DNA of 38,751 nt from a phage, in the sequence record PZ465525.1. The stretch is one strand, 5' to 3'. The notes under the pieces are model-generated. The model made no database searches, was not told the origin of the DNA, and worked only from the letters and a program-made list of their open reading frames with translations. A program made the position numbers and the translations under genes. Below, piece by piece: positions 1-38,751 of this stretch (the first letter of the stretch is position 1; each line of letters begins with the position of its first letter).

Positions 1-174
1 GACATAATGGACGTGACGAACTTGGTGATTGACCCAGAGTTCGAGTCGCGGGAACTCCATAAGTTCCTGAGTGGTCGCTTTAAGGAGCTGGCCGAGCTGA
101 ATGGTCTACAATGGGTGTCCCGCTGCAAGCACGACTCTGCGGGAACGATGAAGGTTTACTTTAAGGGGGTATGA
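1..174 (+). CDS. 7: Gene 7 host-range/virion protein, C-terminal part (continues in frame from 38394-38630 across the permuted window ends)
   Basis: Frame 1 is open from base 1 to TGA at 172-174; it joins in frame with the ORF starting ATG 38394, giving ~136 aa resembling T7 gp7 (recalled). Confidence 0.8.
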   Translation, partial: DIMDVTNLVIDPEFESRELHKFLSGRFKELAELNGLQWVSRCKHDSAGTMKVYFKGV

Positions 175-3156: not shown

Positions 3157-4194
3157 ATGGCTAACATGCAAGGCGGTCAACAACTGGGCACTAACCAAGG
3201 CAAGGGTGCTAGCAACGCTAGTGACAAACTCGCGCTGTTCTTGAAGGTATTCGGCGGCGAAGTCCTGACTGCGTTCGCTCGCACCTCTGTGACCACTTCT
3301 CGTCACATGATGCGCTCCATTTCAAGCGGTAAGTCCGCTCAGTTCCCTGTTCTGGGTCGAACCAATGCGGCCTATTTGGCACCCGGCGCGAACCTCGATG
3401 ACATCCGTAAGGATATTCCGCATACCGAGAAGACCATTTCAATTGATGGCCTACTGACTGCGGACGTTCTGATTTATGACATCGAAGACGCAATGAACCA
3501 CTATGATGTTCGCTCAGAGTACACCGCACAACTGGGTGAGTCTCTGGCGATGGCTGCTGACGGCGCTGTACTGGCTGAAATCGCCGGTCTGTGCAACCTG
3601 CCGGAAGCTGCCAATGAGAACATCGCTGGTCTTGGCAAGGCAACCATTCTGGAAACCTCTAAGCCGAAGGGCGCGCTGTCAACCCCTGCGGCAATCGGAA
3701 CCGAAGTCATTGAGCTGCTGGCCCGTGCCCGTGCTGCTCTGACCAAGAACTACGTTCCGGCTTCCGACCGTGTGTTCTTCTGTGACCCTGACACCTACTC
3801 TGCGATTCTGTCTTCGCTGATGCCGAATGCTGCGAACTACGCTGCAATCATCGACCCTGAGCGTGGCTCTATCCGCAACGTAATGGGCTTTGAGGTCGTT
3901 GAGGTTCCGCACCTGACCTCTGGTGGTGCTGGCGATAGCCGTGAGAAGCTGGATACCAACCAGAAGCACCAGTTCCCTGCTACCGTTCATGGTAACGCCA
4001 AGGTTGCCAAGAGCAACGTTATCGGCCTGTTCATGCACCGCTCTGCGGTAGGTACTGTCAAGCTGAAAGATTTGGCTCTGGAACGCGCTCGCCGTGCTAA
4101 CTTCCAAGCTGACCAAATCATCGCTAAGTACGCTATGGGCCACGGTGGTCTGCGACCGGAAGCTGCTGGTGCCATCGTTTTCAAGGCGGGGTAA
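3157..4194 (+). CDS. 10A: gp10A major capsid protein
   Basis: 345-aa ORF, strongly similar to T7 gp10A along its length (recalled, roughly 85% identity); strong RBS GAAGGAG. Confidence 0.97.
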   Translation: MANMQGGQQLGTNQGKGASNASDKLALFLKVFGGEVLTAFARTSVTTSRHMMRSISSGKSAQFPVLGRTNAAYLAPGANLDDIRKDIPHTEKTISIDGLLTADVLIYDIEDAMNHYDVRSEYTAQLGESLAMAADGAVLAEIAGLCNLPEAANENIAGLGKATILETSKPKGALSTPAAIGTEVIELLARARAALTKNYVPASDRVFFCDPDTYSAILSSLMPNAANYAAIIDPERGSIRNVMGFEVVEVPHLTSGGAGDSREKLDTNQKHQFPATVHGNAKVAKSNVIGLFMHRSAVGTVKLKDLALERARRANFQADQIIAKYAMGHGGLRPEAAGAIVFKAG

Positions 4195-5026: not shown

Positions 5027-7408
5027 ATGGCTCTAATTTCGCAATCCATTAAGAACTTGAAGGGGGGTATCAGCCAACAGCCTGACATCCTTCGCTATCC
5101 TGACCAAGGCTCTCGCCAAGTCAATGGGTGGTCTTCGGAGTCTGAGGGTCTTCAAAAGCGCCCTCCTATGGTGTTCATCAAGACCCTTGGCGACAAAGCC
5201 GCTTTGGGTCAGTCTCCGTACATCCACTTGATTAACCGTGACGAATATGAGCGGTACTACGTTGTGTTCACTGGAAGCGGTATCCGCGTGTTCGACCTTG
5301 CTGGTAACGAGAAGGCTGTCAAGTACAGCGCGAACAAAGCGTACATCACCACGGCCACCCCAAGGGAAGACCTTCGGATGGTAACGGTGGCTGACTACAC
5401 GTTCATCGTGAACAGGGACTACACGGTTGCTTCCGGCGGTTCCATCAACATGAGAGGGTTCAACCCTAAGCAGGACGCCTTGATTAACGTTCGAGGCGGC
5501 CAGTATGGACGAACTCTGCAAGTGATGATTAACGGTGGTACTCAGGCGACATACCAGATTCCAAATGGTGACAACCCTACGCACGTTCAGAATACCGATG
5601 CCCAATGGCTGGCAGAGGAGCTGGCCAAGCGGTTGCGAGCCAACCTCCCTACGTGGTCAGTCACAGTCGGCCAAGGGTACATCCATATCGTGGCACCTGC
5701 TGGTCAACAGATTGATTCCCTTGTGACGAAGGACGGTTACGCTGACCAGCTAATCAGCCCTGTGACTCACTACGCTCAGACCTTCACTAAGTTGCCGCTC
5801 AACGCTCCTGATGGGTACATCGTGAAGATTGTTGGGGACACCGCTAAGTCTGCCGACCAGTATTACGTGAAGTACGATGCGTCCCGTAAGGTCTGGTCTG
5901 AGGTTGTCGGGTGGGACGTTGAGGTTAACCTTCGGGCCGAGACGATGCCACATGCGCTCGTTCGGGCTGCTGATGGTAACTTCGAGTTCAAGACTCTGAG
6001 CTGGTCTGACAGGAAGTGTGGTGACAACGACACTAACCCGTGGCCCTCATTTGTTGACTCGACCATCAACGATGTGTTCTTCTTCCGTAACCGTCTTGGC
6101 TTCCTGACTGGCGAGAACATCGTGCTAAGTCGAACCGGTAAATACTTCAACTTCTTCCCTGCGTCCGTTGCGAACCTTAGCGATGATGACCCGATTGACG
6201 TTGCTGTGAGTGTTAACCGGATTTCCATCTTGAAGTACGCCGTTCCGTTCTCTGAGGAGCTGCTGATTTGGTCTGACGAGACTCAGTTCGTGTTGACCTC
6301 TGCGGGAACCTTAACGTCCCGTTCGGTTGAGCTGAACCTGACCACTCAGTTTGATGTGCAAGACCGAGCGCGTCCCTATGGGATTGGTCGTAACGTGTAC
6401 TTTGCGAGCCCACGGTCTAGCTTTACGTCCATCAGCCGTTACTATGCGGTGCAGGATGTAAGTTCCGTGAAGAACGCCGAGGACATTACCGCCCACGTCC
6501 CGAACTACATCCCGAATGGTGTGTTCGCAATCTGCGGCTCTGGCACCGAGAACTTCTGCTCAGTGTTGACCGATGGAGACCCTAGCAAGATTTTCATCTA
6601 CAAGTTCCTGTACCTCAACGAGGAGCTTCGCCAACAGTCTTGGTCTCACTGGGACTTTGGGCCGAACGTTCAGGTACTAGCTTGTCAAGCTATCGGGTCT
6701 GACATGTACGTGGTGATGCGGAACCAATACAACACCTTTATGTCTCGAATCTCTTTCACTAAGAACGCCATCGACATCATTGGGGAGCCTTACCGAGCCT
6801 ATCTGGACTTCAAGGTTGCCTACACGATTCCCGCTGGTACTTACAACGATGATACCTACGAGACAACCATCAACCTCTCGACCCTCTACGGAGCTCGTTT
6901 TGACCGTGGCAAGGTGACAGTTCTTGAGCCAGATGGTCGTGCCCACATCTTTGAAGACCCTGATGGTGGCTGGGCCAATGCGCCGCTGATTCGCCTAGCG
7001 GGTAACATGGAGGGCAAGAGGGTGTTCCTTGGGTTCAACTTCACGTTCCTTTACGAGTTCTCGAAGTTCCTCATTAAGCAAACCGCTGACGATGGCTCAA
7101 CGGCTACCGAGGACATTGGGCGACTTCAACTGCGAAGGGCTTGGGTGAACTACGAGGATTCCGGTACTTTTGACATCTACGTGGAGAACCAATCGTCAAA
7201 CTGGAAGTACACGATGGCTGGTGGCCGCTTGGGCTCCAACTCACTGAGGGCCAGTAAGTTGAACCTTGGCACGGGCCAGTACCGATTCCCTGTAGCGGGG
7301 AACGCCAAGTTCACTACTGTCTTAATCGCATCTGACGAGGCAACACCGCTGAACGTTATCGGCTGTGGCTGGGAAGGCAACTACCTGCGCCGGAGTTCCG
7401 GCATCTAA
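5027..7408 (+). CDS. 12: gp12 tail tubular protein B
   Basis: 793-aa ORF at the position and size of T7 gp12 (794 aa); RBS TAGGAGG. Confidence 0.95.
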   Translation: MALISQSIKNLKGGISQQPDILRYPDQGSRQVNGWSSESEGLQKRPPMVFIKTLGDKAALGQSPYIHLINRDEYERYYVVFTGSGIRVFDLAGNEKAVKYSANKAYITTATPREDLRMVTVADYTFIVNRDYTVASGGSINMRGFNPKQDALINVRGGQYGRTLQVMINGGTQATYQIPNGDNPTHVQNTDAQWLAEELAKRLRANLPTWSVTVGQGYIHIVAPAGQQIDSLVTKDGYADQLISPVTHYAQTFTKLPLNAPDGYIVKIVGDTAKSADQYYVKYDASRKVWSEVVGWDVEVNLRAETMPHALVRAADGNFEFKTLSWSDRKCGDNDTNPWPSFVDSTINDVFFFRNRLGFLTGENIVLSRTGKYFNFFPASVANLSDDDPIDVAVSVNRISILKYAVPFSEELLIWSDETQFVLTSAGTLTSRSVELNLTTQFDVQDRARPYGIGRNVYFASPRSSFTSISRYYAVQDVSSVKNAEDITAHVPNYIPNGVFAICGSGTENFCSVLTDGDPSKIFIYKFLYLNEELRQQSWSHWDFGPNVQVLACQAIGSDMYVVMRNQYNTFMSRISFTKNAIDIIGEPYRAYLDFKVAYTIPAGTYNDDTYETTINLSTLYGARFDRGKVTVLEPDGRAHIFEDPDGGWANAPLIRLAGNMEGKRVFLGFNFTFLYEFSKFLIKQTADDGSTATEDIGRLQLRRAWVNYEDSGTFDIYVENQSSNWKYTMAGGRLGSNSLRASKLNLGTGQYRFPVAGNAKFTTVLIASDEATPLNVIGCGWEGNYLRRSSGI

Positions 7409-19590: not shown

Positions 19591-19613
19591 CAATTCGACT
19601 CACTATAGGGAGA
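19591..19613 (+). promoter_or_regulatory. Phage RNAP promoter (phiOR-like) near the right end
   Basis: CAATTCGACTCACTATAGGGAGA: consensus core with two changes in the AT-rich upstream part; sits after gene 19 as phiOR does in T7. Confidence 0.85.
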
Positions 19614-19767
19614 GGAGGGACTAAAGGTTATATATAGTATACTGAATGAATAGACTTTGAGTGCATAAAGACCGCATAAAGTCCTACCTAAAGTTTACAC
19701 TAAGTGGTGGTGGTTATTATCAACAATACACCACCTAACTCTAAGAACACTCTAAGGAGGAGACCTC

Positions 19768-20365: not shown

Positions 20366-20442
20366 CATTAGGGGAGCTTTGAGGGGGGACATTGAGGGAC
20401 GTTGAGTGTCCTAGTGTCCCTATCTGTTACAACCTCTTAAAG
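20211..20442. repeat. Putative terminal repeat (single collapsed copy) marking the mature genome ends
   Basis: Begins TCTCACAG... like the T7 left end and ends ...CCCTATCTGTTACAACCTCTTAAAG like the end of the T7 terminal repeat; boundaries are by analogy only. Confidence 0.5.
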
Positions 20443-20633
20443 TATCCTCATAAAGCCACCTCTTAATGTCATTCCTAAAGCCTACACCTAAAGACTACAC
20501 CTAAAGACGCCATCGAGTCAATGCCTATCTTAAAGTATCCTCATAGAGTCACCTCTTAATGTCCTTCTTAAAGCCTACACCTAAAGATGCCCTGTTGTTA
20601 GCCATACAGAGATAATCTTCAATCATTGTCTCT
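20443..20633. repeat. Left-end array of ACCTAAAG-type short repeats with a duplicated ~80-bp unit
   Basis: CTCTTAAAGTATCCTCATAAAGCCACCTCTTAATGTCATTCCTAAAGCCTACACCTAAAGA recurs with small changes ~90 bp downstream. Confidence 0.6.
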
Positions 20634-20656: not shown

Positions 20657-20714
20657 CCACTTAAAGACCTTAAAGACCTTAAAGGGATTAATTTAAGATT
20701 TTAATAAAAGAGTA

Positions 20715-20751
20715 TTGACTTTAGGTCTAGCCTATAGGATATTTTGAGCCA
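20715..20751 (+). promoter_or_regulatory. Host sigma70 early promoter A1-like
   Basis: AAAAGAGTATTGACT-17 bp-GATATT...CCATCGAGAGGGACACGG: -35 TTGACT, -10 GATATT; near-identical to T7 A1 (recalled). Confidence 0.85.
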
Positions 20752-22485: not shown

Positions 22486-23586
22486 ATGAACGTTAACGAA
22501 ATCTCCGCCCGTGTCTCTGAAATAGCTGCTCTGGGTCTCTCTGAGTTGACCAAACTCCAGCCGATGCTGGTGAAGCTAATTGCCGACATTGTGAACCACG
22601 AAACGGAAAACGGCTATTTGACAATGAAAGAAGGCGACCGTGCGCTAGGGGCGATGCCCTATTGGAACAGCCTGATGGTTTACTTGAAGGATGCTGGCTT
22701 TGAGCTGCTGGGCAATGGTCACTTTTCGGCTGCCTTTAAGCACCACCTTCTGCCACAAAAGGTTATCAAGGTCGGGTTCAAAAAAGAGGACTCAGGGGCA
22801 GCATACGCTGCGTTCTGCCGCATGAACCAAGGCAAGCAAGGCATCCCTACCATCCACGACATTCAACGTCACGCTGGCTGTTACACTGTGGTTCTTGACG
22901 AGCTGCGCAGCATCCAGACCGATGGGTGGGGGCTCATGGCTGATAGCCAATGGGTCGACGAACAATACGACTGCGCCCGTCAGGTAATCCAGTACGGTCT
23001 CTGCCCGAGCTACTACGAGGGCTTCGCGGCGGACGAACTCGCCAAGACCTGCGCGGAAATACGCAAGTTCTTCGAGGGAATCGCAGTCTTCGATATGCAC
23101 GCCGGTAACGCAATGGTTGACAAAGACGGCAATCTGGTAATTACCGACCCTGTATCGTTCGCCTCTGCGCTGCCTGAGAATGAGTTCCTCGTAGACCCCG
23201 AGGAACTCCTAGCGGAAATCGAGCAGATAGCCGAGCGCAAGATTATTGAGCGGTGCCGTGAGCGAAAAGCCAAGCGCGACCCTAACGGAATATTCCGGTT
23301 CAACCTCAAACAGCGCCAAAAGCGCCGCAAGGAATGCAAGAAGGCCGAACGCCTCCGGAAACGGGATGCTGCCAAGCTGGCGCTCCAAGCGCACAACCGT
23401 GATGTGGCCCTTAAGGAGCTTGGCATAACTCTCTGGATGAAAGCCTACTTCGACCTCCCAAACGCAAAGATGGTCGAAATGGAGGCGCAAGTTGCCGCCA
23501 AGGTCGCTAACCGCAACCACAAAGCAATTGCACTGGGTCAGGCTCTCGATATTGACAAAGAACTTGACGCAATGTTCCAAGGTTGA
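22486..23586 (+). CDS. 0.7: gp0.7 serine/threonine protein kinase / host transcription shutoff protein
   Basis: Start at ATG 22486 (ORF track 22432 is upstream in the hairpin); conserved blocks FELLGNGHFSAAF, VIKVGFKKEDSGAAY, RHAGCYTVVLDEL, KFFEGIAVFDMHAGN, ITDPVSF and ...IDKELDAMFQG match T7 gp0.7 (recalled). Confidence 0.9.
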   Translation: MNVNEISARVSEIAALGLSELTKLQPMLVKLIADIVNHETENGYLTMKEGDRALGAMPYWNSLMVYLKDAGFELLGNGHFSAAFKHHLLPQKVIKVGFKKEDSGAAYAAFCRMNQGKQGIPTIHDIQRHAGCYTVVLDELRSIQTDGWGLMADSQWVDEQYDCARQVIQYGLCPSYYEGFAADELAKTCAEIRKFFEGIAVFDMHAGNAMVDKDGNLVITDPVSFASALPENEFLVDPEELLAEIEQIAERKIIERCRERKAKRDPNGIFRFNLKQRQKRRKECKKAERLRKRDAAKLALQAHNRDVALKELGITLWMKAYFDLPNAKMVEMEAQVAAKVANRNHKAIALGQALDIDKELDAMFQG

Positions 23587-23652: not shown

Positions 23653-26304
23653 ATGACTGTAATCGCAATCGAAAAGAACGACTTCTCCGACGTTGAGCTG
23701 GCTGTTATCCCGTTCAACACACTGGCAGACCACTACGGTGAGAAGCTGGCCCGTGAGCAGTTGGCACTTGAGCACGAAGCTTATGAAATGGGCGAGGCCC
23801 GTTTCCGCAAGATATTCGAGCGTCAGCTTAAGGCTGGTGAGGTTGCAGATAACGCTGCCGCTAAGCCGCTTGTCGCAACCCTGCTCCCCAAGATGATTGA
23901 GCGAATCCACGCTTGGTTCGAGGAGGTTTCCGTTAAGCGTGGCAAGCGCCCGACTGCCTTTAAGTTCCTGCAAGAGGTAAAGCCAGAGGCTATCGCTTAC
24001 ATCACCATCAAGACCGTTCTGGGTGCTCTGACAAGCGCTGAGCAAACCACTGTGCAAGCCGCCGCGTCTGCTGTTGGTCGCGCCATTGAGGACGAAGCCC
24101 GCTTTGGTCGCATCCGTGACCTTGAGGCTAAGCACTTCAAGAAGAACGTGGAGGAACAGCTTAACAAGCGTGTGGGCCACGTCTACAAGAAGGCTTTCCT
24201 GCAAGTGGTTGAGGCTGATATGCTGAGCAAGGGCCTGATGGGCGGTGAAGCGTGGTCTAGCTGGCACAAAGAAGACTCCATCCACGTTGGCGTTCGCTGC
24301 ATCGAAATGCTCATTGAGTCAACCGGTCTTGTTGTCCTTGAGCGTCAAAACGCTGGCGTCGTTGGCGCTGATGCTGAGACCCTGAGCCTTGCCTCTGAGT
24401 ATGCTGACGTAATCGCAACCCGCGCTGGTGCTCTGGCTGGTATCTCTCCAATGTATCAGCCTTGCGTAGTTCCGCCTAAACCTTGGACAACTGTGACTGG
24501 CGGTGGCTACTGGGCTAACGGTCGCCGTCCGCTTGCTCTGGTGCGTACCCACGGCAAGAAGGCGCTGATGCGCTACGAGGACGTTTACATGCCTGAGGTT
24601 TACAAAGCGGTCAACCTTGCGCAATCCACCGCATGGAAAATCAACAAGAAGGTGCTGGCGGTAGCCAACGAGATTACCAAGTGGAAGCACTGCCCTGTTG
24701 AGGACATTCCGGCAATCGAGCGCGAGGATCTGCCAGTTAAACCGGACGACATTGACGAGAACCCTGAGGCGCTGATCAACTGGAAACGTGCTGCGGCGGC
24801 TGTGTACCGCAAGGACAAGGCCCGCAAGTCTCGCCGTCTGTCCCTTGAGTTTATGCTTGAGCAGGCCAACAAGTTCGCAAACCACAAGGCCATTTGGTTC
24901 CCTTACAACATGGACTGGCGTGGTCGCGTTTACGCGGTCTCCATGTTCAACCCGCAAGGCAACGATATGACCAAGGGCTTGCTGACTCTGGCTAAGGGAA
25001 AGGCAATCGGCAAGGAAGGTTTCTACTGGCTGAAAATCCACGGTGCAAACTGCGCTGGTGTCGATAAGGTTCCGTTCCCTGAGCGCATCAAGTTCATTGA
25101 GGACAACCACGAGCACATCATGGCGTCCGCTAAGAACCCGCTTGAGTACACTTGGTGGGCCGAACAAGATAGCCCGTTCTGCTTCCTTGCGTTCTGCTTT
25201 GAGTACGCTGGGGTAATGCACCACGGCTTGTCTTATAACTGCTCCCTGCCGCTGGCTTTCGACGGCTCCTGCTCTGGCATCCAGCACTTCTCCGCGATGC
25301 TGCGCGATGAAGTTGGTGGTCGTGCGGTGAACCTGCTCCCGAGCGAGACCGTGCAGGACATTTACGGCATCGTAGCCAAGAGGGTGAACGAAATCCTGCA
25401 ACGCGATGTTATCTTTGGGACTGACGACGAGTTGGTCACTGAGACTGACAAGACCACTGGGGAAATCACTGAGAAAACCGTACTGGGCACTCGCACTCTG
25501 GCGGGCCAATGGCTGGCCTATGGGGTCAACCGTAGCGTAACCAAGCGTTCCGTAATGACTCTGGCGTATGGCTCCAAGGAGTTCGGTTTCCGTCAGCAAG
25601 TCCTTGAGGACACTATCCGTCCGGCTATCGACTCCGGCAAGGGCCTGATGTTCACCATCCCGTACCAAGCGGCTGGCTACATGGCTAAGCTGATTTGGGA
25701 CTCTGTGAGCGTGACCGTAGTTGCTGCGGTAGAGGCCATGAAGTGGCTGCAAAGTGCCGCTAAGCTGCTGGCCGCTGAGGTCAAGGACAAGAAGACTGGT
25801 GAGGTTCTGCGTAACCGCTGCGCTGTTCACTGGGTAACTCCCGATGGGTTCGCCGTATGGCAGGAGTACCGCAAGCCTCTGCAAACCCGTCTGAATCTGA
25901 TGTTCCTCGGTCAGTTCCGCTTGCAGCCGACCATCAACACCAACAAGGACTCTGGGATTGATGCTCATAAGCAGGAGTCTGGCATTGCACCTAACTTCGT
26001 ACACTCTCAGGATGGCTCTCACCTGCGCAAGACCGTAGTGTGGGCTCACGAAAAGTACGGCATCGAGTCTTTCGCTCTGATTCACGACTCTTTCGGAACC
26101 ATTCCGGCTGACGCTGGCAACCTATTCAAGGCTGTGCGTGAGACTATGGTTGACACCTACGAGAAGAACGATGTGCTGGCCGACTTCTACGAGCAGTTTG
26201 CTGACCAGCTCCACGAGTCCCAACTGGACAAGATGCCTGCTCTGCCGAAGAAAGGCAACCTGAACCTGCGGGACATTCTTGAGTCTGACTTCGCGTTCGC
26301 GTAA
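23653..26304 (+). CDS. 1: gp1 single-subunit DNA-dependent RNA polymerase
   Basis: 883 aa, identical in length and highly similar to T7 RNAP (MTVIAIEKNDFSDVELAAIPFNTLADHYGE..., ends ...LRDILESDFAFA). Confidence 0.98.
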   Translation: MTVIAIEKNDFSDVELAVIPFNTLADHYGEKLAREQLALEHEAYEMGEARFRKIFERQLKAGEVADNAAAKPLVATLLPKMIERIHAWFEEVSVKRGKRPTAFKFLQEVKPEAIAYITIKTVLGALTSAEQTTVQAAASAVGRAIEDEARFGRIRDLEAKHFKKNVEEQLNKRVGHVYKKAFLQVVEADMLSKGLMGGEAWSSWHKEDSIHVGVRCIEMLIESTGLVVLERQNAGVVGADAETLSLASEYADVIATRAGALAGISPMYQPCVVPPKPWTTVTGGGYWANGRRPLALVRTHGKKALMRYEDVYMPEVYKAVNLAQSTAWKINKKVLAVANEITKWKHCPVEDIPAIEREDLPVKPDDIDENPEALINWKRAAAAVYRKDKARKSRRLSLEFMLEQANKFANHKAIWFPYNMDWRGRVYAVSMFNPQGNDMTKGLLTLAKGKAIGKEGFYWLKIHGANCAGVDKVPFPERIKFIEDNHEHIMASAKNPLEYTWWAEQDSPFCFLAFCFEYAGVMHHGLSYNCSLPLAFDGSCSGIQHFSAMLRDEVGGRAVNLLPSETVQDIYGIVAKRVNEILQRDVIFGTDDELVTETDKTTGEITEKTVLGTRTLAGQWLAYGVNRSVTKRSVMTLAYGSKEFGFRQQVLEDTIRPAIDSGKGLMFTIPYQAAGYMAKLIWDSVSVTVVAAVEAMKWLQSAAKLLAAEVKDKKTGEVLRNRCAVHWVTPDGFAVWQEYRKPLQTRLNLMFLGQFRLQPTINTNKDSGIDAHKQESGIAPNFVHSQDGSHLRKTVVWAHEKYGIESFALIHDSFGTIPADAGNLFKAVRETMVDTYEKNDVLADFYEQFADQLHESQLDKMPALPKKGNLNLRDILESDFAFA

Positions 26305-26305
26305 T

Positions 26306-26328
26306 CAATACGACTCACTATAAGGAGG
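26306..26328 (+). promoter_or_regulatory. Phage RNAP class II promoter (phi1.1A-like)
   Basis: CAATACGACTCACTATAAGGAGG: consensus with A at +1. Confidence 0.8.
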
Positions 26329-26345
26329 GCTCCCGATGGTGGTCT

Positions 26346-26368
26346 TAATACGACTCACTATTGGGAGA
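26346..26368 (+). promoter_or_regulatory. Phage RNAP class II promoter (phi1.1B-like)
   Basis: TAATACGACTCACTATTGGGAGA: one mismatch at -1. Confidence 0.85.
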
Positions 26369-26459
26369 CCTTAAGGTTCTACTTTAAGACCCTTAAGACT
26401 CTTACTTTAAGATTTAATTTAAGACCAAATTTAAGACTTAACTCTAAGGAGACTTTAAG
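26369..26459. repeat. AT-rich TTTAAGA/CTTAAG repeat region downstream of the phi1.1A/B promoters; candidate primary replication origin
   Basis: CCTTAAGGTTCTACTTTAAGACCCTTAAGACTCTTACTTTAAGATTTAATTTAAGACCAAATTTAAGACTTAACTCTAAGG; T7 places its primary origin in the equivalent AT-rich region. Confidence 0.5.
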
Positions 26460-26582
26460 ATGCGTAATTTCGAGAAATTCACCAAGCGTTCTTCCCACAA
26501 AGACTTCGCTGAGTTCGCCCAAGAGGGACGCAAGATGAACAAGGTCAAGCGTGACCGTTCTCACAAACGCAACTGGGCATAA
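26460..26582 (+). CDS. 1.1: gp1.1 small basic protein
   Basis: 40 aa, MRNFEKFTKRSSHKDFAEFAQEGRKMNKVKRDRSHKRNWA, similar to T7 gp1.1 (recalled); RBS TAAGGAG; too short for the ORF track. Confidence 0.8.
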   Translation: MRNFEKFTKRSSHKDFAEFAQEGRKMNKVKRDRSHKRNWA

Positions 26583-26592
26583 GGAGGTCTTT

Positions 26593-26832
26593 ATGGCGCT
26601 CGACGTGATGTTCTTTGAGAACCGCCTCAATAAGCTGGCCGCCTACGCTAACAGCATGGGTCTGCGCCTCCGGTGGATGAACGAACCGATGACCCTATCG
26701 CTGCGAGTGGGCATCTTTGAGCGAGGCTTTCAGGAGCCACTTGCAGAGAAGACGTTCGAGTGGGGCGCTAGTAGCCTTGACGTAGAACGCTGGGTCGCCA
26801 AGGTATGCAAGGACTACGCGAGCTGGGACTAA
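26593..26832 (+). CDS. Gene 1.2-position protein (possible functional analogue of the T7 dGTPase inhibitor; sequence-divergent)
   Basis: 79-aa ORF from ATG 26593 after RBS AAGGAGG; occupies the T7 gene 1.2 slot but shows little similarity to T7 gp1.2 as recalled. Confidence 0.6.
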   Translation: MALDVMFFENRLNKLAAYANSMGLRLRWMNEPMTLSLRVGIFERGFQEPLAEKTFEWGASSLDVERWVAKVCKDYASWD

Positions 26833-26852
26833 TACGACTCACTATCGAGAGA
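26830..26852 (+). promoter_or_regulatory. Phage RNAP class II promoter (phi1.3-like)
   Basis: TAATACGACTCACTATCGAGAGA: deviations at -1/+2 (the T7 phi1.3 is also nonconsensus downstream). Confidence 0.75.
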
Positions 26853-26862
26853 GAGAGGAAGA

Positions 26863-26896
26863 ATGCCCAAGGTCGCTCGCTGAGTGGCCTTCATCA
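26863..26896 (+). promoter_or_regulatory. RNase III-type processing hairpin (R1.3-like)
   Basis: ATGCCCAAGGTCGCTCGCTGAGTGGCCTTCATCATT. Confidence 0.7.
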
Positions 26897-26929
26897 TTCT
26901 ACTCACATAATCTGCAAAGGAGAATCGTC

Positions 26930-28048
26930 ATGATGAACATCAAGACCAACCCGTACAAAGCTGTGTCCTTCAACGAGAAAGCCGTTGAGAAGGCGCTCAA
27001 GCGTTCGCACTACCTGATTGCTGACATCAAGTATGATGGTGTGCGCGGGAACACTCTGGTCAAACCGTCTCAAGGTGCTTGCTGGCTCTCTCGGGTATCG
27101 AAACCGATTCCGGCGATTGAGCACCTGAACGATGGCGCTGCCCGTTGGGACAACCTGCTCAAGGATAACCGCTGCATGTTCCCGACTGGCTTTATGCTTG
27201 ATGGCGAGCTGATGGTTGACGGTGTGGACTTCAACACTGGCTCCGGCCTGCTGCGAACCAAGTGGCTAGACTCCAAGAATCAGGAGTTCCACAACGAGTT
27301 CCTGCCGCGCAACGTCAAGAAGTCCGAGAAGATTCCGTTCCGTCTGGACGCTGGCCTGCTCAAGGTCGTCATTTACGCCGTGCTCCCGATTGAAGTAGTG
27401 GAGTCCGGTGCCGACTATCCGGTCAAGAACCTGCTGATGCAGGAACACGTCAAGAACATGCTGCCTCTGCTCCGCGCTCACTTCCCTGAGATTAGCTGGC
27501 AAGCGGCTGAGTCCCATGAGGTGTATGATATGACCGAACTGTCTGCACTGTACGAAATGAAACGCGAGGAGGGTCACGAAGGTCTCATTGTGAAAGACCC
27601 GAGCGACACCTACAAGCGCGGCAAGAAGACTGGCTGGTGGAAGATGAAGCCAGAGAACGAGGCTGATGGTGTCATTCAGGGTTTGGTATGGGGCAACAAG
27701 GGTCTTGCTAACGAAGGCAAGGTGATTGGCTTTGAGGTGCTGCTAGAGTCTGGCCGTGTGGTCAACGCTTGCAATATCTCCAAGGCCCTGATGGACGAGT
27801 TCACGGCTGCCGTCAAGGCTAACACTCCGTGCGCTGGTAGCGGAATCTGTCAATACGCTCAGGACATTGCGATGCCTGAACATCACTGCTCTGGACAGTG
27901 CCAGTACGAGGGCCACGCGATGGCCAACCCGTACCACGGCTGGGCTTGTCAAATCAGCTACATGGAGGAGACCCCTGACGGCTCCCTTCGCCACCCTTCC
28001 TTTGTGATGTTCCGTGGCACCGAAGCGGAACCGACCGAGAAGATGTAA
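26930..28048 (+). CDS. 1.3: gp1.3 ATP-dependent DNA ligase
   Basis: 372 aa; MMNIKTNPYKAVSF...IADIKYDGVRGN (adenylation motif KYDGxR) ...EGLIVKDP...WWKMKPE...DGSLRHPSFVMFRGTE; highly similar to T7 ligase (recalled). Confidence 0.96.
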   Translation: MMNIKTNPYKAVSFNEKAVEKALKRSHYLIADIKYDGVRGNTLVKPSQGACWLSRVSKPIPAIEHLNDGAARWDNLLKDNRCMFPTGFMLDGELMVDGVDFNTGSGLLRTKWLDSKNQEFHNEFLPRNVKKSEKIPFRLDAGLLKVVIYAVLPIEVVESGADYPVKNLLMQEHVKNMLPLLRAHFPEISWQAAESHEVYDMTELSALYEMKREEGHEGLIVKDPSDTYKRGKKTGWWKMKPENEADGVIQGLVWGNKGLANEGKVIGFEVLLESGRVVNACNISKALMDEFTAAVKANTPCAGSGICQYAQDIAMPEHHCSGQCQYEGHAMANPYHGWACQISYMEETPDGSLRHPSFVMFRGTEAEPTEKM

Positions 28049-33299: not shown

Positions 33300-35258
33300 A
33301 TGATTGTCTCAGACATCGAATCAAACGGCCTACTTGAGACCACTACTAAATTCCATTGCGCGGTTATCTATGACTACAGTACAGGAGAATACAGCAAGTA
33401 TCGCCCTGTGGACTTTAATAAATACCTTGACGCATTAGAAGCTGAGGTAGCAAAGGGAGGACTCATAGTAGGACATAACTTCGCTAAATTTGACATCCCT
33501 GCGTTAACCAAGTTGGCTAAGTTGCAATTGAACCGAGAGTTCAACATTCCTCGTGAGAACTGTGTGGATACCCTCGTGCTGTCCAGACTGATTCACTCGA
33601 ACCTCAAGGACACCGATATGGGTCTCCTGCGCTCCGGTAAACTGCCGGGCAAACGCTACGGTTCCCACGCTCTGGAAGCATGGGGCTACCGCTTAGGCGA
33701 AATGAAGGGTGAGTACAAGGACGACTTCAAGGCTGCTCTTGAGGAGCAAGGTGAGGAGTACGTTGAGGGAATGGAGTGGCGCTCATTCAACGAGGACATG
33801 CTGGCCTATAACGTTCAGGACGTTGTGGTCACTAAGGCCCTCCTTGAGAAGCTACTTTCCGACAAGCACTACTTCAAGCCTGAGGTGGACTTCACGGATG
33901 TCTCTGCGGATACCTTCTGGATGGAGGCTATCGAGGCGATTGACGTGGAGCACCGAGCCGCTTGGTTGCTCGCTAAGCAGGAGCGCAACGGCTACCCGTT
34001 CAACACCAAGGCTATCGAAGACCTGTACGTTGAGCTGGCCTCTCGCCGCTCTGAGTTGCTGAAGCGACTGACCGAGACGTTCGGCTCTTGGTATCAGCCT
34101 AAGGGTGGCACCGAAATGTTCCTACACCCACGCACTGGTCAGCCGCTCCCGAAGTATCCGCGAGTGAAGACCCCGAAGGTCGGAGGCATCTTCAAGAAGC
34201 CCAAGAACAAAGCCCAGCGCGAAGGTCGTGAGCCCTGTGAGCTGGACACTCGGGACTTCGTTGCTGGTGCCGTTTACACTCCGGTGGAGCACGTTGTCTT
34301 CAACCCTTCGTCCCGCGACCACATCCAGAAGAAGCTCCAAGAGGCTGGCTGGGTGCCCGAGAAGTTCACCGATAAGGGTGCTCCGGTAGTGGACGACGAG
34401 GTGCTTGAAGGCGTTGTTGTGGACGACCCTGAGAAGCAAGCAGCCATCGACCTCATTAAGGAGTACCTGATGATTCAGAAGCGAATCGGTCAGAGTGCTG
34501 AGGGCGACAAGGCGTGGCTGCGCTACGTTGCGGAGGACGGTAAGATTCATGGTAGCGTTAACCCTAACGGTGCGGTTACTGGTCGTGCCACTCACGCCTT
34601 CCCGAACCTTGCGCAAATCCCAAGTGTTCGGTCTCCGTATGGCGAACAGTGCCGTGCTGCATTCGGGGCTGAACACCATCTTGATTACGTCACTGGGGAA
34701 CCTTGGGTTCAAGCTGGTATCGACGCATCCGGTCTTGAGCTGCGCTGCTTGGCCCACTTCATGGCTCGATTCGACAACGGCGAGTATGCCCATGAGATTC
34801 TGAACGGTGACATTCACACCAAGAACCAGTTGGCTGCCGAGCTGCCGACCCGAGACAACGCCAAGACCTTCATCTACGGTTTCCTCTATGGGGCCGGAGA
34901 CGAGAAGATTGGTCAGATTGTTGGTGCTGGTAAGGAACGCGGTAAGGAACTCAAGAAGAAATTCCTTGAGAATACCCCTGCGATTGCTGCGCTCCGTGAG
35001 TCCATCCAATCGACTCTCGTTGAGAGTTCCCAATGGGTGGCTGGTGAACAGCAAGTCAAGTGGAAGCGCCGTTGGATTAAGGGCATGGATGGCCGTAAGG
35101 TTCACGTCCGTAGCCCACACGCTGCGCTGAACACTGTGCTGCAATCCGCTGGTGCGCTTATCTGCAAGCTGTGGATTATCAAGACCGAGGAAATGCTCAT
35201 TGAGAAGGGCTACAAGCACGGCTGGGATGGAGACTTTGCGTACATGGCATGGGTGCAT
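33300..35258 (+). CDS. 5: gp5 DNA polymerase, exon 1 (codons 1-653)
   Basis: Near-identical to T7 DNA polymerase through ...GWDGDFAYMAWVH, then drops into 8 unrelated codons and a stop (35282); the real coding sequence resumes at 35861. Confidence 0.93.
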
Positions 35259-35860
35259 AAACTATCTCATTGTGCACGTTAAATCTGGTGAACTCGGTGA
35301 AACCCTTCTGGGGGCAATACCGAGCCAAGCCATAGGGAGGATATATGAGAGGCAAGAAGTTAATCCTTGCGACCACAGAGAGTGGTTGTATCATCCCTAC
35401 GTCACACAAACTTAATGCTGATGGTTATTTCCGAAAGAAGACGAACGGTGTCCTAGAGATGTATCACAGGACAGTCTGGAAGGAGCACTACGGAGATATA
35501 CCAGAAGGGTATGAAGTAGACCATAGGTGTAGGAACAGGGCGTGCTGTAACGTAGAGCACCTTCAGTTACTAGAAGGTTCTGAGCATACAGTAAAGACAA
35601 ACAGGGAACGCTACGCTGACCGTAAAGAGTCCGCGAAGGAATACTGGTTGGAGACTGGATGCACAGGAACACACTTAGGTGAGAAGTTTGGTGTAACGTT
35701 CTCTGCAGCTTGTAAGTGGATTAGAGAGTGGAAGGCGTAGAGACTATCCGAAAGGAGTAGGGCCGAGGGTGAGACTCCCTCGTTACCCGAAGCGCCAGAC
35801 AGTCAACTCAAAGACTGATGATATAGTCCGACACTCCTAGTAATAGGAGAATACAGAAAG
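35259..35860 (+). mobile_element. Group I-type self-splicing intron interrupting gene 5 at polymerase motif C, carrying an HNH homing endonuclease ORF
   Basis: 602-nt insertion between the H and DE codons of the conserved VHDE motif; exon 1 ends in T (35258) and the insert ends in G (35860); GTGCAC at 35272-35277 can pair with the exon end GTGCAT to form P1 with a U-G pair at the splice site; downstream helices (GACTAT/ATAGTC, GAGGG/CCCTC, GGAGT/ACTCC) present. Confidence 0.85.
35345..35740 (+). CDS. Intron-encoded HNH homing endonuclease
   Basis: 131-aa ORF with RBS GGGAGG; HNH/zinc motif ...EGYEVDHRCRNRACCNVEHLQLLEGSEHTVKTN... Confidence 0.88.
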   Translation: MRGKKLILATTESGCIIPTSHKLNADGYFRKKTNGVLEMYHRTVWKEHYGDIPEGYEVDHRCRNRACCNVEHLQLLEGSEHTVKTNRERYADRKESAKEYWLETGCTGTHLGEKFGVTFSAACKWIREWKA

Positions 35861-36016
35861 GATGAGATTCAAGTAGGTTGCCGTACCGAAGAGATTGCTC
35901 AGGTAGTCATTGAGACCGCCCAAGAGGCTATGCGCTGGGTAGGCGAGCACTGGAACTTCCGGTGTCTGCTGGATACCGAAGGCAAGATGGGGCCTAACTG
36001 GGCCGTGTGCCACTAA
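35861..36016 (+). CDS. 5: gp5 DNA polymerase, exon 2 (C-terminal 51 codons)
   Basis: In-frame continuation DEIQVGCRTEEIAQVVIETAQEAMRWVGEHWNFRCLLDTEGKMGPNWAVCH*, matching the T7 DNA polymerase C-terminus; joined product is 704 aa, the T7 length. Confidence 0.9.
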   Translation, partial: DEIQVGCRTEEIAQVVIETAQEAMRWVGEHWNFRCLLDTEGKMGPNWAVCH

Positions 36017-37776: not shown

Positions 37777-37842
37777 ACTCAAGGCCCTTATCGAGTCCGA
37801 AATTAATACGACTCACTATAGGGGATAGGGGCCTTTATGATT
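37777..37842 (+). promoter_or_regulatory. RNase III-type hairpin (R6.5-like) with the phi6.5 promoter in its loop
   Basis: ACTCAAGGCCCTTATC...(promoter)...GATAGGGGCCTTTATGATT; arms AAGGCCCTTATC / GATAGGGGCCTT are near-complementary. Confidence 0.7.
37804..37826 (+). promoter_or_regulatory. Phage RNAP class III promoter (phi6.5)
   Basis: TAATACGACTCACTATAGGGGAT. Confidence 0.9.
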
Positions 37843-37890
37843 ATTACTTAAAGACCTTTAAGGTTTAACTTAGAGTGAGGAATCATTATC

Positions 37891-38139
37891 ATGTTAAAAC
37901 CAATCCAACACTTTATGAATCACCCTGAGGATGTGCCCGATGTGCCCCTAGCGGTCGCTGAGTACCTACAGGTTCGATTCAACTATGCGTACCTCGAAGC
38001 AACCGGTCACATTGGTCATATGCGAGCCTCTGGCTGTAGTGAAGCGCACATCCTTGGGTTCATCCAAGGTCTGCAATACGCGGCCAACGTGATTGACGAA
38101 ATCGAGTTGCGTAAGGAGCAACTGAACGAGGAGGAATAA
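37891..38139 (+). CDS. 6.5: gp6.5 protein
   Basis: 82-aa ORF at the conserved position after phi6.5. Confidence 0.8.
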
Positions 38140-38394: not shown

Positions 38395-38751
38395 TGACCA
38401 AGAAGCGGTTCGTTAGCGTAGAGGCGGTCAGTCGCTTCCACGCGATTATGTGGACTGTGCAGTACCTTGGGGTGCCCACTGGTTTCCGCGACTTCTGGGA
38501 TTACGAAGGATACGTCAATAACATCATGGACGCTGCTGAGTTCGAGGAGGAGTACATCATGGACTCCACTACTGGCAACTTGGTGGCCTACTTCACGTGG
38601 TGTGTCAGTAACGACATTCACCACAAGGGAGACATAATGGACGTGACGAACTTGGTGATTGACCCAGAGTTCGAGTCGCGGGAACTCCATAAGTTCCTGA
38701 GTGGTCGCTTTAAGGAGCTGGCCGAGCTGAATGGTCTACAATGGGTGTCCC
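38394..38751 (+). CDS. 7: Gene 7 host-range/virion protein, N-terminal part (truncated by the window end; continues at 1-174)
   Basis: ATG 38394 overlaps the 6.7 stop (TGATG); MTKKRFVSVEAVSRFHAIMWTVQYLGVPTGF... is in frame with bases 1-174 once the 121-bp end overlap is removed. Confidence 0.8.
   Translation, partial: MTKKRFVSVEAVSRFHAIMWTVQYLGVPTGFRDFWDYEGYVNNIMDAAEFEEEYIMDSTTGNLVAYFTWCVSNDIHHKGDIMDVTNLVIDPEFESRELHKFLSGRFKELAELNGLQWVS
38631..38751. repeat. 121-bp exact duplicate of window positions 1-121 (circular-assembly overlap, not a biological repeat)
   Basis: 38631-38751 (GACATAATGGACGTGACGAACTTGG...ATGGGTGTCCC) is identical to 1-121; it lies inside gene 7. Confidence 0.9.

What the first reader, a model, noticed from the sequence alone, without database searches (positions are those of the whole stretch)
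26369..26459. Candidate primary replication origin: AT-rich TTTAAGA repeat tract after the tandem 1.1A/1.1B promoters
Directly after the paired promoters at 26306-26368 there is a ~90-bp AT-rich tract made of reiterated CTTTAAGA/TTTAAGAC motifs. In T7 the primary origin maps to the AT-rich region downstream of phi1.1A/B, where transcription by the phage RNA polymerase primes replication. A similar short ACTTAAAGACC repeat tract follows the phiOL-like promoter (20657-20700) and may be a secondary origin.
Basis: partly seen in the sequence, partly recalled or inferred. Interest (0 to 1): 0.3.

Follow-up and report, generated by a model that had tools for sequence, protein, structure and literature searches.

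The report
Orthologue of the T7 primary origin
This AT-rich repeat tract, which follows two phage-polymerase promoters, is the counterpart of the well-studied primary replication origin of phage T7, so it is an expected feature of a T7-like phage rather than a new kind of element.

Summary
Window 26369-26459 is the most AT-rich 91 bp of this 38.6-kb T7-like genome (GC 0.28-0.30 against 0.53). It carries 7 TTAAG cores where 0.75 are expected (0 of 5000 shuffles), arranged as eight units spaced 9-14 nt apart. It starts at +7 of a phi1.1B-like promoter, with a phi1.1A-like promoter 40 bp upstream, and it runs into the ribosome-binding site and ATG of gene 1.1.

The tract aligns base-for-base with the T7 AT-rich segment downstream of phi1.1B. 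It shares its ACTTTAAG repeats with the stretch that the T3 GenBank record annotates as "primary origin of DNA replication".

In both T7 and the window, the four least stable 60-bp duplexes follow phiOL, phi1.1B, phi6.5 and phiOR. T7-type RNA polymerase, gp2.5, gp4 and gp5 are all encoded (86-97% identity).

The best reading is therefore a transcription-primed T7-type primary origin that also serves as the gene 1.1 leader. Function is inferred from homology and was not measured.

One modest extra: the unit is a conserved 9-nt motif, ACTTWAAGA. Arrays of it mark the first promoter after gene 1 across Studiervirinae, yet the motif-free phiOR tract also works as an origin, so the motif's own role is unresolved.

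Interest is low: a new member of a known kind.

The parts
23653..26304 (+). Gene 1, single-subunit phage RNA polymerase (883 aa)
   Evidence: PHROG 414, E = 0. 89.5% identity to T7 gp1 over 883 aa.
26306..26328 (+). phi1.1A-like promoter, CAATACGACTCACTATAAGGAGG
   Evidence: 3 mismatches to the T7 consensus. Same position as T7 phi1.1A.
26330..26367 (+). Hairpin in the phi1.1A transcript: 26330-26341 pairs with 26356-26367, the core of the phi1.1B promoter. It sits where T7 has the R1.1 RNase III site.
   Evidence: RNA fold z = -2.3. The arms are conserved in the five clade members.
26346..26368 (+). phi1.1B-like promoter, TAATACGACTCACTATTGGGAGA, with +1 at 26363
   Evidence: 1 mismatch to the consensus. 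Aligned with T7 phi1.1B.
26369..26459 (+). AT-rich tract of eight ACTTWAAGA-type units. Inferred unwinding and primer-handover zone of the primary origin, and also the 5' leader of gene 1.1.
   Evidence: Orthology to T7 and T3.
26388..26392 (-). gp4 primase recognition pentamer GGGTC, the homologue of the single site in the T7 origin
   Evidence: T7 5948 corresponds to window 26388. This unit is absent from IME15 and PZL-Ah1.
26423..26427 (-). Second primase pentamer, TGGTC, which T7 lacks
26445..26451 (+). Shine-Dalgarno sequence TAAGGAG of gene 1.1, formed by the seventh repeat unit
   Evidence: Read from the sequence. It lies 8 nt before the ATG at 26460.
26460..26582 (+). Gene 1.1 (40 aa)
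   Evidence: PHROG 2490, E = 2.6e-16. 66% identity to T7 gp1.1.
26593..26832 (+). Gene at the gene 1.2 position (79 aa), with a weak match to a dGTPase inhibitor
   Evidence: PHROG 32835, E = 1.4e-56, and PHROG 6515, E = 2.2e-4.
26658..26662 (+). First canonical primase site (GGGTC) on the displaced + strand to the right of the tract. Candidate start of leftward synthesis (inferred).
   Evidence: The T7 analogue is the + strand GGGTC at 6126, listed as a first priming site in PMC12839067.
20634..20656 (+). phiOL-like promoter
   Evidence: 1 mismatch to the consensus. Aligned with T7 phiOL.
20657..20714 (+). AT-rich tract after phiOL: CTTAAAGAC x 3 plus one TTTAAGA. Candidate secondary origin; it abuts the -35 element of an A1-like host promoter at 20715-20743.
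37804..37826 (+). phi6.5-like promoter
   Evidence: Aligned with T7 phi6.5.
37827..37890 (+). AT-rich tract after phi6.5 with two units (ACTTAAAGACCTTTAAGG). Candidate secondary origin and the gene 6.5 leader.
   Evidence: Third least stable 60-bp duplex. PMC8373140 names phi6.5 as a T7 secondary origin.
19591..19613 (+). phiOR-like promoter
19614..19720 (+). AT-rich tract after phiOR, with no ACTTWAAGA unit. Candidate secondary origin.
   Evidence: Fourth least stable duplex in both T7 and the window. PMC8373140 shows plasmid replication driven by the T7 phiOR origin.

Best explanation
The tract is the AT-rich half of a T7-type, transcription-primed primary replication origin.

Proposed mechanism:
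1. The phage RNA polymerase starts at the phi1.1A-like and phi1.1B-like promoters (+1 at 26363) and transcribes rightward into about 90 bp of very unstable duplex.
2. Short nascent transcripts are taken over there by the phage DNA polymerase (gp5 with thioredoxin) as primers for rightward synthesis.
3. The displaced + strand gives the gp4 helicase-primase a place to load.
4. gp4 then primes leftward synthesis at the first + strand (G/T)(G/T)GTC site (GGGTC at 26658), which makes replication bidirectional.

The same RNA is the untranslated leader of gene 1.1, so the tract has a second, mRNA-level role.

What is shown and what is inferred. Shown here: the anatomy, the orthology with the T7 and T3 origins, and the presence of the cognate enzymes. 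Taken from T7 biochemistry (as I recall Romano 1981, Fuller and Richardson 1985, and Rabkin and Richardson 1988; cited in PMC8373140 and PMC5997990 but not read here): the priming mechanism. Inferred: that the mechanism operates in this phage, and which sites are used.
For: 1. Two T7-consensus promoters lie directly upstream, with the tract starting at +7.
2. The tract is the most AT-rich 91-nt window of the genome and its second least stable 60-bp duplex.
3. The sequence is orthologous to T7 5923-6006. CCTTAAGGTT..ACTTTAAGACCCTTAAG and the GGGTC site are conserved.
4. The T3 record annotates the homologous repeat stretch as the primary origin.
5. The ranking of the four least stable duplexes (phiOL, phi1.1B, phi6.5, phiOR) is identical in T7 and in the window. 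This matches the set of primary and secondary origins named in PMC8373140.
6. RNA polymerase, gp2.5, gp3.5, gp4, gp5 and gp6 are 79-97% identical to their T7 counterparts.
7. 65 of 75 non-redundant relatives carry an array of at least 2 units in the 200 nt after the polymerase stop codon. The motif is 15-fold enriched there compared with the rest of the same loci.
Against: There are no replication data for this phage or its close relatives. IME15 and Ebrios carry no rep_origin annotation.

GC skew cannot locate the origin, even in T7 where the origin is known.

The tract differs from T7 in several ways. The promoters are 40 bp apart rather than 75 bp, the R1.1 hairpin between them is missing, and there is one extra 14-bp unit.

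The tract is also a perfectly good mRNA leader, and its units resemble the enhancer-plus-SD context of late genes. Conservation could therefore reflect translation rather than replication.

I could not read the original mapping papers.
Confidence: 0.8

Rival explanations
1. The tract is only an mRNA leader. It would be an unstructured, A/U-rich 5' UTR made of repeated copies of the T7-type translational enhancer and partial Shine-Dalgarno motif (ACUUUAAG-GAG). These copies would recruit ribosomes for genes 1.1 and 1.2, and replication would start elsewhere.
For: Single ACTTTAAG copies sit immediately 5' of, or overlapping, the SD of late genes in the window (159, 2120, 14780) and in T7 (genes 7.3, 9, 10 and 17; the gene 10 site at 22946 is the classic g10 enhancer) (PMC8748333).

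In nearly all relatives the array ends in the SD of the next gene.

The tract RNA has no significant secondary structure (z = 0.27), as expected of an open leader.

The motif-free phiOR tract still functions as an origin (PMC8373140), so the motif is not an origin requirement.
Against: The same kind of array follows phiOL, where no ORF or SD follows and the next element is a host promoter.

The orthologous T7 and T3 segments are the mapped or annotated primary origins (PMC2910064; PMC12839067).

The two roles are compatible, so evidence for translation does not remove the origin reading.
Confidence: 0.08
2. The repeats are sequence-specific binding sites of the iteron type. One version is repeated GTC-containing sites on the - strand that recruit the zinc-binding domain of gp4 primase to the duplex origin. 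In this reading the motif, not AT-richness, defines the origin.
For: The unit is a real 9-nt motif. Its flanks, which were not part of the search pattern, are A in 44 of 47 units and C in 45 of 47 units from 27 non-redundant tracts.

Arrays of at least 3 units occur genome-wide only at the promoter after gene 1, plus phiOL in the window.

All 5 GAC triplets of the tract give GTC on the - strand, with none on the + strand.

PMC2910064 raises the possibility that primase recognises the origin.
Against: The units of Berlinvirus and Przondovirus contain no GAC.

The unit carrying the T7-conserved GGGTC is naturally deleted in IME15 and PZL-Ah1.

PMC12839067, citing Kulczyk and Richardson 2016, states that the GGGTC in the T7 AT-rich cluster is not used for priming.

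phiOR works as an origin without any unit (PMC8373140).

T7-like phages have no Rep-type initiator. Spacing varies from 9 to 15 nt.
Confidence: 0.07
3. The repeats are a neutral by-product. Replication slippage duplicated the segment next to the ribosome-binding site in an AT-rich spacer. Only the AT-richness, or nothing at all, is under selection.
For: Close relatives differ by whole units. A 9-bp TTAAGACCC unit is present or absent within the clade, and the window has one more 14-bp unit than T7. The phiOL and phi6.5 tracts also have one more unit than T7.
Against: Arrays with the same core persist across at least four genera whose promoter specificities differ, while the spacers between units diverge. 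The tract is about as conserved as the flanking coding sequence within the clade (93% mean column identity, with most differences being indels).
Confidence: 0.05

Closest known systems
Primary origin of bacteriophage T7 (promoters phi1.1A and phi1.1B plus the roughly 61-bp AT-rich region, about T7 nt 5848-5990)
   Same: It lies in the same intergenic slot between gene 1 and gene 1.1 and has the same two tandem rightward promoters. The first 30 nt of the AT-rich segment are the same (CCTTAAGGTT..ACTTTAAGACCCTTAAG), including the - strand GGGTC primase site. The end is also the same (GACTTTAAG just before the ATG). The replisome genes match.
   Different: The promoters are 40 bp apart rather than 75 bp, and the R1.1 RNase III hairpin between them is missing. 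The tract is 13 nt longer, with one more repeat unit and a second primase pentamer. The leader is 97 nt rather than 84 nt. No experimental mapping exists for this phage.
Primary origin of bacteriophage T3 (rep_origin 5682-5758 in NC_003298, after promoter phi1.05)
   Same: It follows the first phage promoter after gene 1 and consists of ACTTTAAG-type units in AT-rich DNA.
   Different: T3 has a single promoter of T3 specificity. Its origin overlaps the start of an extra gene, 1.05. The units are more widely spaced.
T7 secondary origins (phiOR and phi6.5, with phiOL from memory)
   Same: Each is a promoter followed by an AT-rich tract. The window keeps all of them, with the same stability ranking as T7.
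   Different: phiOR has no ACTTWAAGA unit. These origins are used in T7 only when the primary origin is deleted (PMC8373140).
T7 gene 10 leader translational enhancer ('epsilon', the A/U-rich 9-nt element upstream of the SD)
   Same: The core ACTTTAAG is shared. T7's own origin tract contains the exact TTAACTTTA sequence, which is the enhancer sequence as I recall it (PMC8748333).
   Different: The enhancer is a single copy next to an SD. Here there are eight units, most of them far from the SD, and one array (after phiOL) has no gene behind it.
Other transcription-primed origins (ColE1 RNA II, and mitochondrial light-strand-promoter/CSB priming by a T7-like polymerase)
   Same: An RNA polymerase transcript is converted into the leading-strand primer.
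   Different: Those origins rely on G-rich, stable RNA-DNA hybrids and RNase H or other processing. Here the transcribed DNA is AT-rich and the RNA is unstructured. This comparison rests on my own knowledge.

Membership tests
T7-type transcription-primed phage origin | One or more promoters for the phage's own single-subunit RNA polymerase, directed into the origin | tested here: met
   26306-26328 and 26346-26368 match the T7 consensus with 3 and 1 mismatches. The polymerase gene is immediately upstream.
T7-type transcription-primed phage origin | An AT-rich segment of about 60 bp or more immediately downstream of the promoter | tested here: met
   GC is 0.30 over 91 bp starting at +7. This is the genome minimum for GC and the second least stable duplex.
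T7-type transcription-primed phage origin | Location between gene 1 and gene 1.1, about 15% from the genetic left end | tested here: met
   Gene order is 1, promoters, tract, 1.1, 1.2-like, ligase. The tract lies about 6.2 kb from the left end, which I inferred from IME15 coordinates, giving about 16%.
T7-type transcription-primed phage origin | Sequence homology to the mapped T7 origin segment | tested here: met
   blastn aligns T7 5906-6125, E = 4e-25, 73% identity. Alignment A1 confirms it.
T7-type transcription-primed phage origin | A gp4 primase recognition site within the AT-rich segment | tested here: met
   - strand GGGTC at 26388 (homologous to T7 5948) and TGGTC at 26423. The literature says the T7 site is not used (PMC12839067), and relatives lack it, so this feature is probably not essential.
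T7-type transcription-primed phage origin | Cognate replisome encoded (gp1, gp2.5, gp4, gp5) | tested here: met
   tblastn identities to T7 are 89%, 97%, 86% and 90%. gp5 is interrupted by an intron.
T7-type transcription-primed phage origin | Replication initiates here and depends on the phage RNA polymerase | not testable with these tools
   This needs nascent-strand mapping or a plasmid origin assay. GC skew is uninformative even for T7.
Iteron-type (Rep-dependent) origin | Regularly spaced direct repeats of about 17-22 bp, bound by a Rep initiator encoded nearby | tested here: not met
   Units are 9 nt with 9-14 nt spacing. No Rep-like gene lies nearby, and the neighbours are T7 genes 1, 1.1, 1.2 and 1.3.
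T7 R1.1-type RNase III processing site | A hairpin of about 50 nt with an internal loop in the transcript | tested here: not met
   Tract fold z = 0.27. There is no Rfam match. T7's R1.1 lies between the promoters, where the window has only about 17 nt; a different 12-bp hairpin forms there.
T7 g10-type translational enhancer | An A/U-rich 9-nt element upstream of an SD that raises translation | tested here: inconclusive
   The core ACTTTAAG is present in 3 units, and the same core sits at late-gene ribosome-binding sites. There is no exact TTAACTTTA in the window tract, and the effect on translation is not testable here.

The most novel reading that the evidence does not exclude
The ACTTWAAGA array is not just AT-rich filler. 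It would be a conserved, sequence-specific module that marks the primary-origin promoter throughout Studiervirinae and is read by a shared component, for example the elongating polymerase at the RNA-to-DNA handover, or ribosomes that couple gene 1.1 translation to origin firing. Unit number would then tune origin strength. The window clade has gained one unit at each of the phi1.1B, phiOL and phi6.5 tracts relative to T7.
Probability: 0.15. Interest if true: 0.45.

Novelty: new member of a known kind. Interest (0 to 1): 0.15.

Why it matters
Annotation. The origin of this phage and of its unannotated relatives (IME15, Ebrios, PZL-Ah1, KFSA9) can be placed with good confidence.

Engineering. 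T7-origin plasmids and orthogonal T7 replisomes are under active development (PMC8373140; bioRxiv 10.1101/2024.07.25.605042). Natural variants of the origin, with more repeat units, closer promoters and no R1.1 site, are ready-made test cases for what the AT-rich element needs.

Biology. It adds nothing unexpected. The only open point is what the conserved ACTTWAAGA unit does.

Tried and rejected
- GC and AT skew. Cumulative skew rises monotonically in both the window and T7. It has no turning point at the known T7 origin, so it cannot test the claim.
- Structured RNA or a known RNA family. There were no Rfam matches at gathering threshold over the whole window. The only hit in 26250-26950 was a chance one (E = 7). 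The tract fold is no better than shuffles.
- Host sigma-70 promoter or terminator inside the tract. None was found.
- Iteron/Rep origin. Rejected, because there is no initiator gene and the units are short.
- Primase-recruitment reading of the GAC-containing units. Judged weak, because the GAC is clade-specific and the conserved GGGTC unit is deleted in IME15 and PZL-Ah1.
- Co-variation between the array variant (TTTAAG or TTAAAG) and the variant found at ribosome-binding sites. A Przondovirus genome uses both variants at its ribosome-binding sites, so the test was uninformative.
- Literature. Saito 1980, Sugimoto 1987 and Lee and Richardson 2011 are not held. A search for the motif string found nothing relevant. 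Details of T7 origin biochemistry therefore rest on secondary citations and on my memory.

Full report
WHAT THE WINDOW IS

The window is a circularly permuted assembly of a T7-like podovirus. Its first 121 bases repeat exactly at its end, so the unit length is 38,630 bp. Thirteen matches to the T7 promoter consensus, all on the + strand, punctuate a T7 gene order.

The closest database relatives around the finding are about 95% identical. They are Stenotrophomonas phage IME15, Escherichia phage Ebrios, and Aeromonas phages PZL-Ah1 and KFSA9, all genus Teseptimavirus (genus from the records).

Upstream of the finding lies gene 1, the 883-aa RNA polymerase at 23653-26304. Downstream lie gene 1.1 (26460-26582, 40 aa), a 79-aa gene at the 1.2 position, a phi1.3-like promoter and the ligase gene.

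CHECKING THE OBSERVATION

The two promoters are at 26306-26328 (3 mismatches) and 26346-26368 (1 mismatch, +1 at 26363). The tract 26369-26459 starts at +7.

- AT-richness: GC is 0.297 against 0.529 for the genome. The most AT-rich 91-nt window of the whole genome is 26380-26470.
- Duplex stability: by nearest-neighbour stability it is the second weakest 60-bp duplex.
- Genome-wide motif count: TTTAAGA occurs 13 times in the window, with 3.15 expected, and 5 of those are in the tract.
- Test against composition: compared with dinucleotide-preserving shuffles of the tract itself, TTAAG occurs 7 times where 0.75 are expected, and none of 5000 shuffles reaches that. The repetition is therefore not a side-effect of base composition.
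- Layout: TAAG cores lie at 26372, 26385, 26394, 26408, 26420, 26432, 26445 and 26456. That makes eight units 9-14 nt apart. Tandem Repeats Finder also detects them.

The last two units form the Shine-Dalgarno sequence (26445-26451) and the spacer before the gene 1.1 start codon.

WHAT IT CORRESPONDS TO

blastn aligns window 26345-26577 with T7 5906-6125. A multiple alignment shows the segment after phi1.1B to be orthologous. CCTTAAGGTT, ACTTTAAGACCCTTAAG and GACTTTAAG before the ATG are shared, and the window clade has one extra 14-bp unit.

PMC12839067 places the A/T-rich cluster of the T7 origin at 3761-3821 of a 36,942-bp strain. Record MZ318362 has that length, with phi1.1B at 3755. Converted to wild-type coordinates, this gives T7 5929-5989, which is +7 to +67 of phi1.1B. 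That is exactly the stretch aligned with the window tract. The conversion is my inference.

PMC2910064 states that the T7 primary origin holds a single primase recognition sequence. That site is the - strand GGGTC at T7 5948, and its homologue is at window 26388.

The T3 GenBank record carries a rep_origin feature, "primary origin of DNA replication", at 5682-5758, right after promoter phi1.05. Its sequence is again made of ACTTTAAG-type units.

THE WIDER ORIGIN ARCHITECTURE IS ALSO CONSERVED

In T7 the four least stable 60-bp duplexes lie just downstream of phiOL, phi1.1B, phi6.5 and phiOR, in that order. In the window the four least stable duplexes lie downstream of the orthologous promoters in the same order: 20687-20746, 26401-26460, 37836-37895 and 19621-19680.

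PMC8373140, citing Rabkin and Richardson 1988, names phi1.1A and phi1.1B as the primary origins and phiOR and phi6.5 as secondary origins. It also shows that plasmid replication from a T7 origin needs the promoter and its surrounding sequence.

The proteins that act at the T7 origin are all encoded here:

| Protein | Identity to T7 |
|---|---|
| gp1 (RNA polymerase) | 89% |
| gp2.5 | 97% |
| gp3.5 | 79% |
| gp4 | 86% |
| gp5 | 90% |

HOW IT MOST LIKELY WORKS

I transfer the T7 mechanism to this phage. My account of that mechanism rests on my recollection of Romano 1981, Fuller and Richardson 1985, and Sugimoto 1987. These are cited in PMC8373140 and PMC5997990 but I could not read them here.

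1. The phage polymerase initiates at the two promoters and runs into the unstable tract.
2. gp5 takes over short transcripts as primers for rightward synthesis.
3. gp4 loads on the displaced + strand.
4. gp4 primes leftward synthesis at the first + strand recognition site. In the window that is GGGTC at 26658. The T7 analogue at 6126 is one of the two "first priming sites" listed in PMC12839067.

The anatomy and the orthology are shown here. The mechanism is inferred.

IS THE REPEAT MOTIF ITSELF MEANINGFUL?

I collected 80 related loci from IMG/VR using the C-terminal 200 aa of the polymerase as query. Of 75 non-redundant sequences:

- 65 have at least 2 and 55 have at least 3 TTTAAG, TTAAAG or CTTAAG units spaced 16 nt or less apart within 200 nt of the polymerase stop codon.
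- The motif density there is 15.5 per kb, against 1.03 per kb elsewhere in the same loci.
- T7, T3 and Berlinvirus types use ACTTTAAG. Przondovirus types use ACTTAAAG.

In 47 units from 27 non-redundant tracts, the positions I did not select on are strongly conserved: A at -2 in 44 of 47, C at -1 in 45 of 47, and A or T at +6 in all 47. The unit is therefore a 9-nt motif, ACTTWAAGA.

Arrays of three or more units occur genome-wide only at this promoter in T7 and in Klebsiella phage IME205. In the window they occur only here and after phiOL.

Three facts argue against the motif being what makes an origin:

1. The phiOR tract has no unit at all, in T7 or in the window, yet it supports plasmid replication (PMC8373140).
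2. The unit that carries the T7-conserved GGGTC is naturally missing from IME15 and PZL-Ah1. PMC12839067 reports that this site is not used for priming.
3. Single copies of the same core sit at the ribosome-binding sites of late genes. These include T7 gene 10, whose A/U-rich enhancer is documented (PMC8748333).

My reading is that AT-richness downstream of a phage promoter is the replication-relevant property. The motif probably derives from, and may still act as, a translational leader element. Its expansion into arrays at this particular promoter remains unexplained.

RIVAL READINGS

- A leader-only reading is unlikely. An array also follows phiOL, where no gene follows, and the orthologous T7 and T3 segments are the recognised origins.
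- An iteron or primase-recruitment reading is unlikely for the three reasons listed above.
- An RNase III or structured-RNA reading fails.
- Neutral slippage explains the unit-number differences between relatives. It does not explain persistence of the motif across genera.

THE phiOL CLAIM

The tract 20657-20714 is real and orthologous to T7's, with one more CTTAAAGAC unit. A secondary-origin role is plausible. From memory, the promoters phiOL and phiOR were so named for a possible origin role.

Two cautions apply. The held literature names only phiOR and phi6.5 as secondary origins. The tract also lies directly upstream of the -35 element of an A1-like host promoter (TTGACT at 20715), where AT-rich DNA may serve as an upstream promoter element.

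VERDICT

The element is a new member of a known kind. Interest is low (0.15). The only mildly novel point is the subfamily-wide ACTTWAAGA array.

Noticed in passing
window 33300-36013: Gene 5 (DNA polymerase) is split. T7 gp5 residues 1-653 align to 33300-35258 and residues 654-704 to 35861-36013. The 602-bp insert holds an HNH endonuclease ORF (35345-35740; Pfam HNH_3, E = 1.6e-16). It also matches the Rfam group I intron model over its full length at 35249-35850 (37.7 bits, below the gathering score of 50; E = 5.5e-8). This looks like the homing-endonuclease intron known from the polymerase genes of some T7-like phages (from memory).
   Followed up: partly
window 1-121 and 38631-38751: The first 121 bases are repeated exactly at the end of the window. 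This is the overlap of a circularised assembly, so the genome unit is 38,630 bp, with the concatemer junction collapsed near 20.2-20.4 kb.
   Followed up: yes
window 26330-26367: The transcript from the phi1.1A-like promoter can form a 12-bp hairpin. CTCCCGATGGTG pairs with CACTATTGGGAG, which is the core of the phi1.1B promoter. The fold has z = -2.3 and the arms are conserved in all five clade members. It replaces the R1.1 RNase III hairpin that T7 has between the two promoters. Its function is unknown.
   Followed up: partly
window 20657-20700, 26369-26459 and 37847-37862, compared with T7: Each of the three promoter-proximal tracts that contain the motif (phiOL, phi1.1B, phi6.5) has one more ACTTWAAGA unit than its T7 orthologue. 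Within the clade, a 9-bp unit (TTAAGACCC) is present in the window, Ebrios and KFSA9 but absent from IME15 and PZL-Ah1.
   Followed up: partly
window 20400-20600: The region after the collapsed terminal repeat carries the T7-type CCTAAAG / CTTAAAG short repeats (for example CCTAAAGACTACA x 2.7 at 20474-20508). It also carries an ATCTGTT sequence at about 20419-20425, which resembles the T7 concatemer-junction pause signal for the phage polymerase (from memory).
   Followed up: no
L025 (IMGVR_UViG_2974600872, vB_EcoP_IME390-like), downstream of gene 1: This T7 relative appears to carry a tandem duplication of the phi1.1A promoter together with the R1.1 hairpin, ahead of phi1.1B. This is another natural variant of the origin's promoter region.
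   Followed up: no
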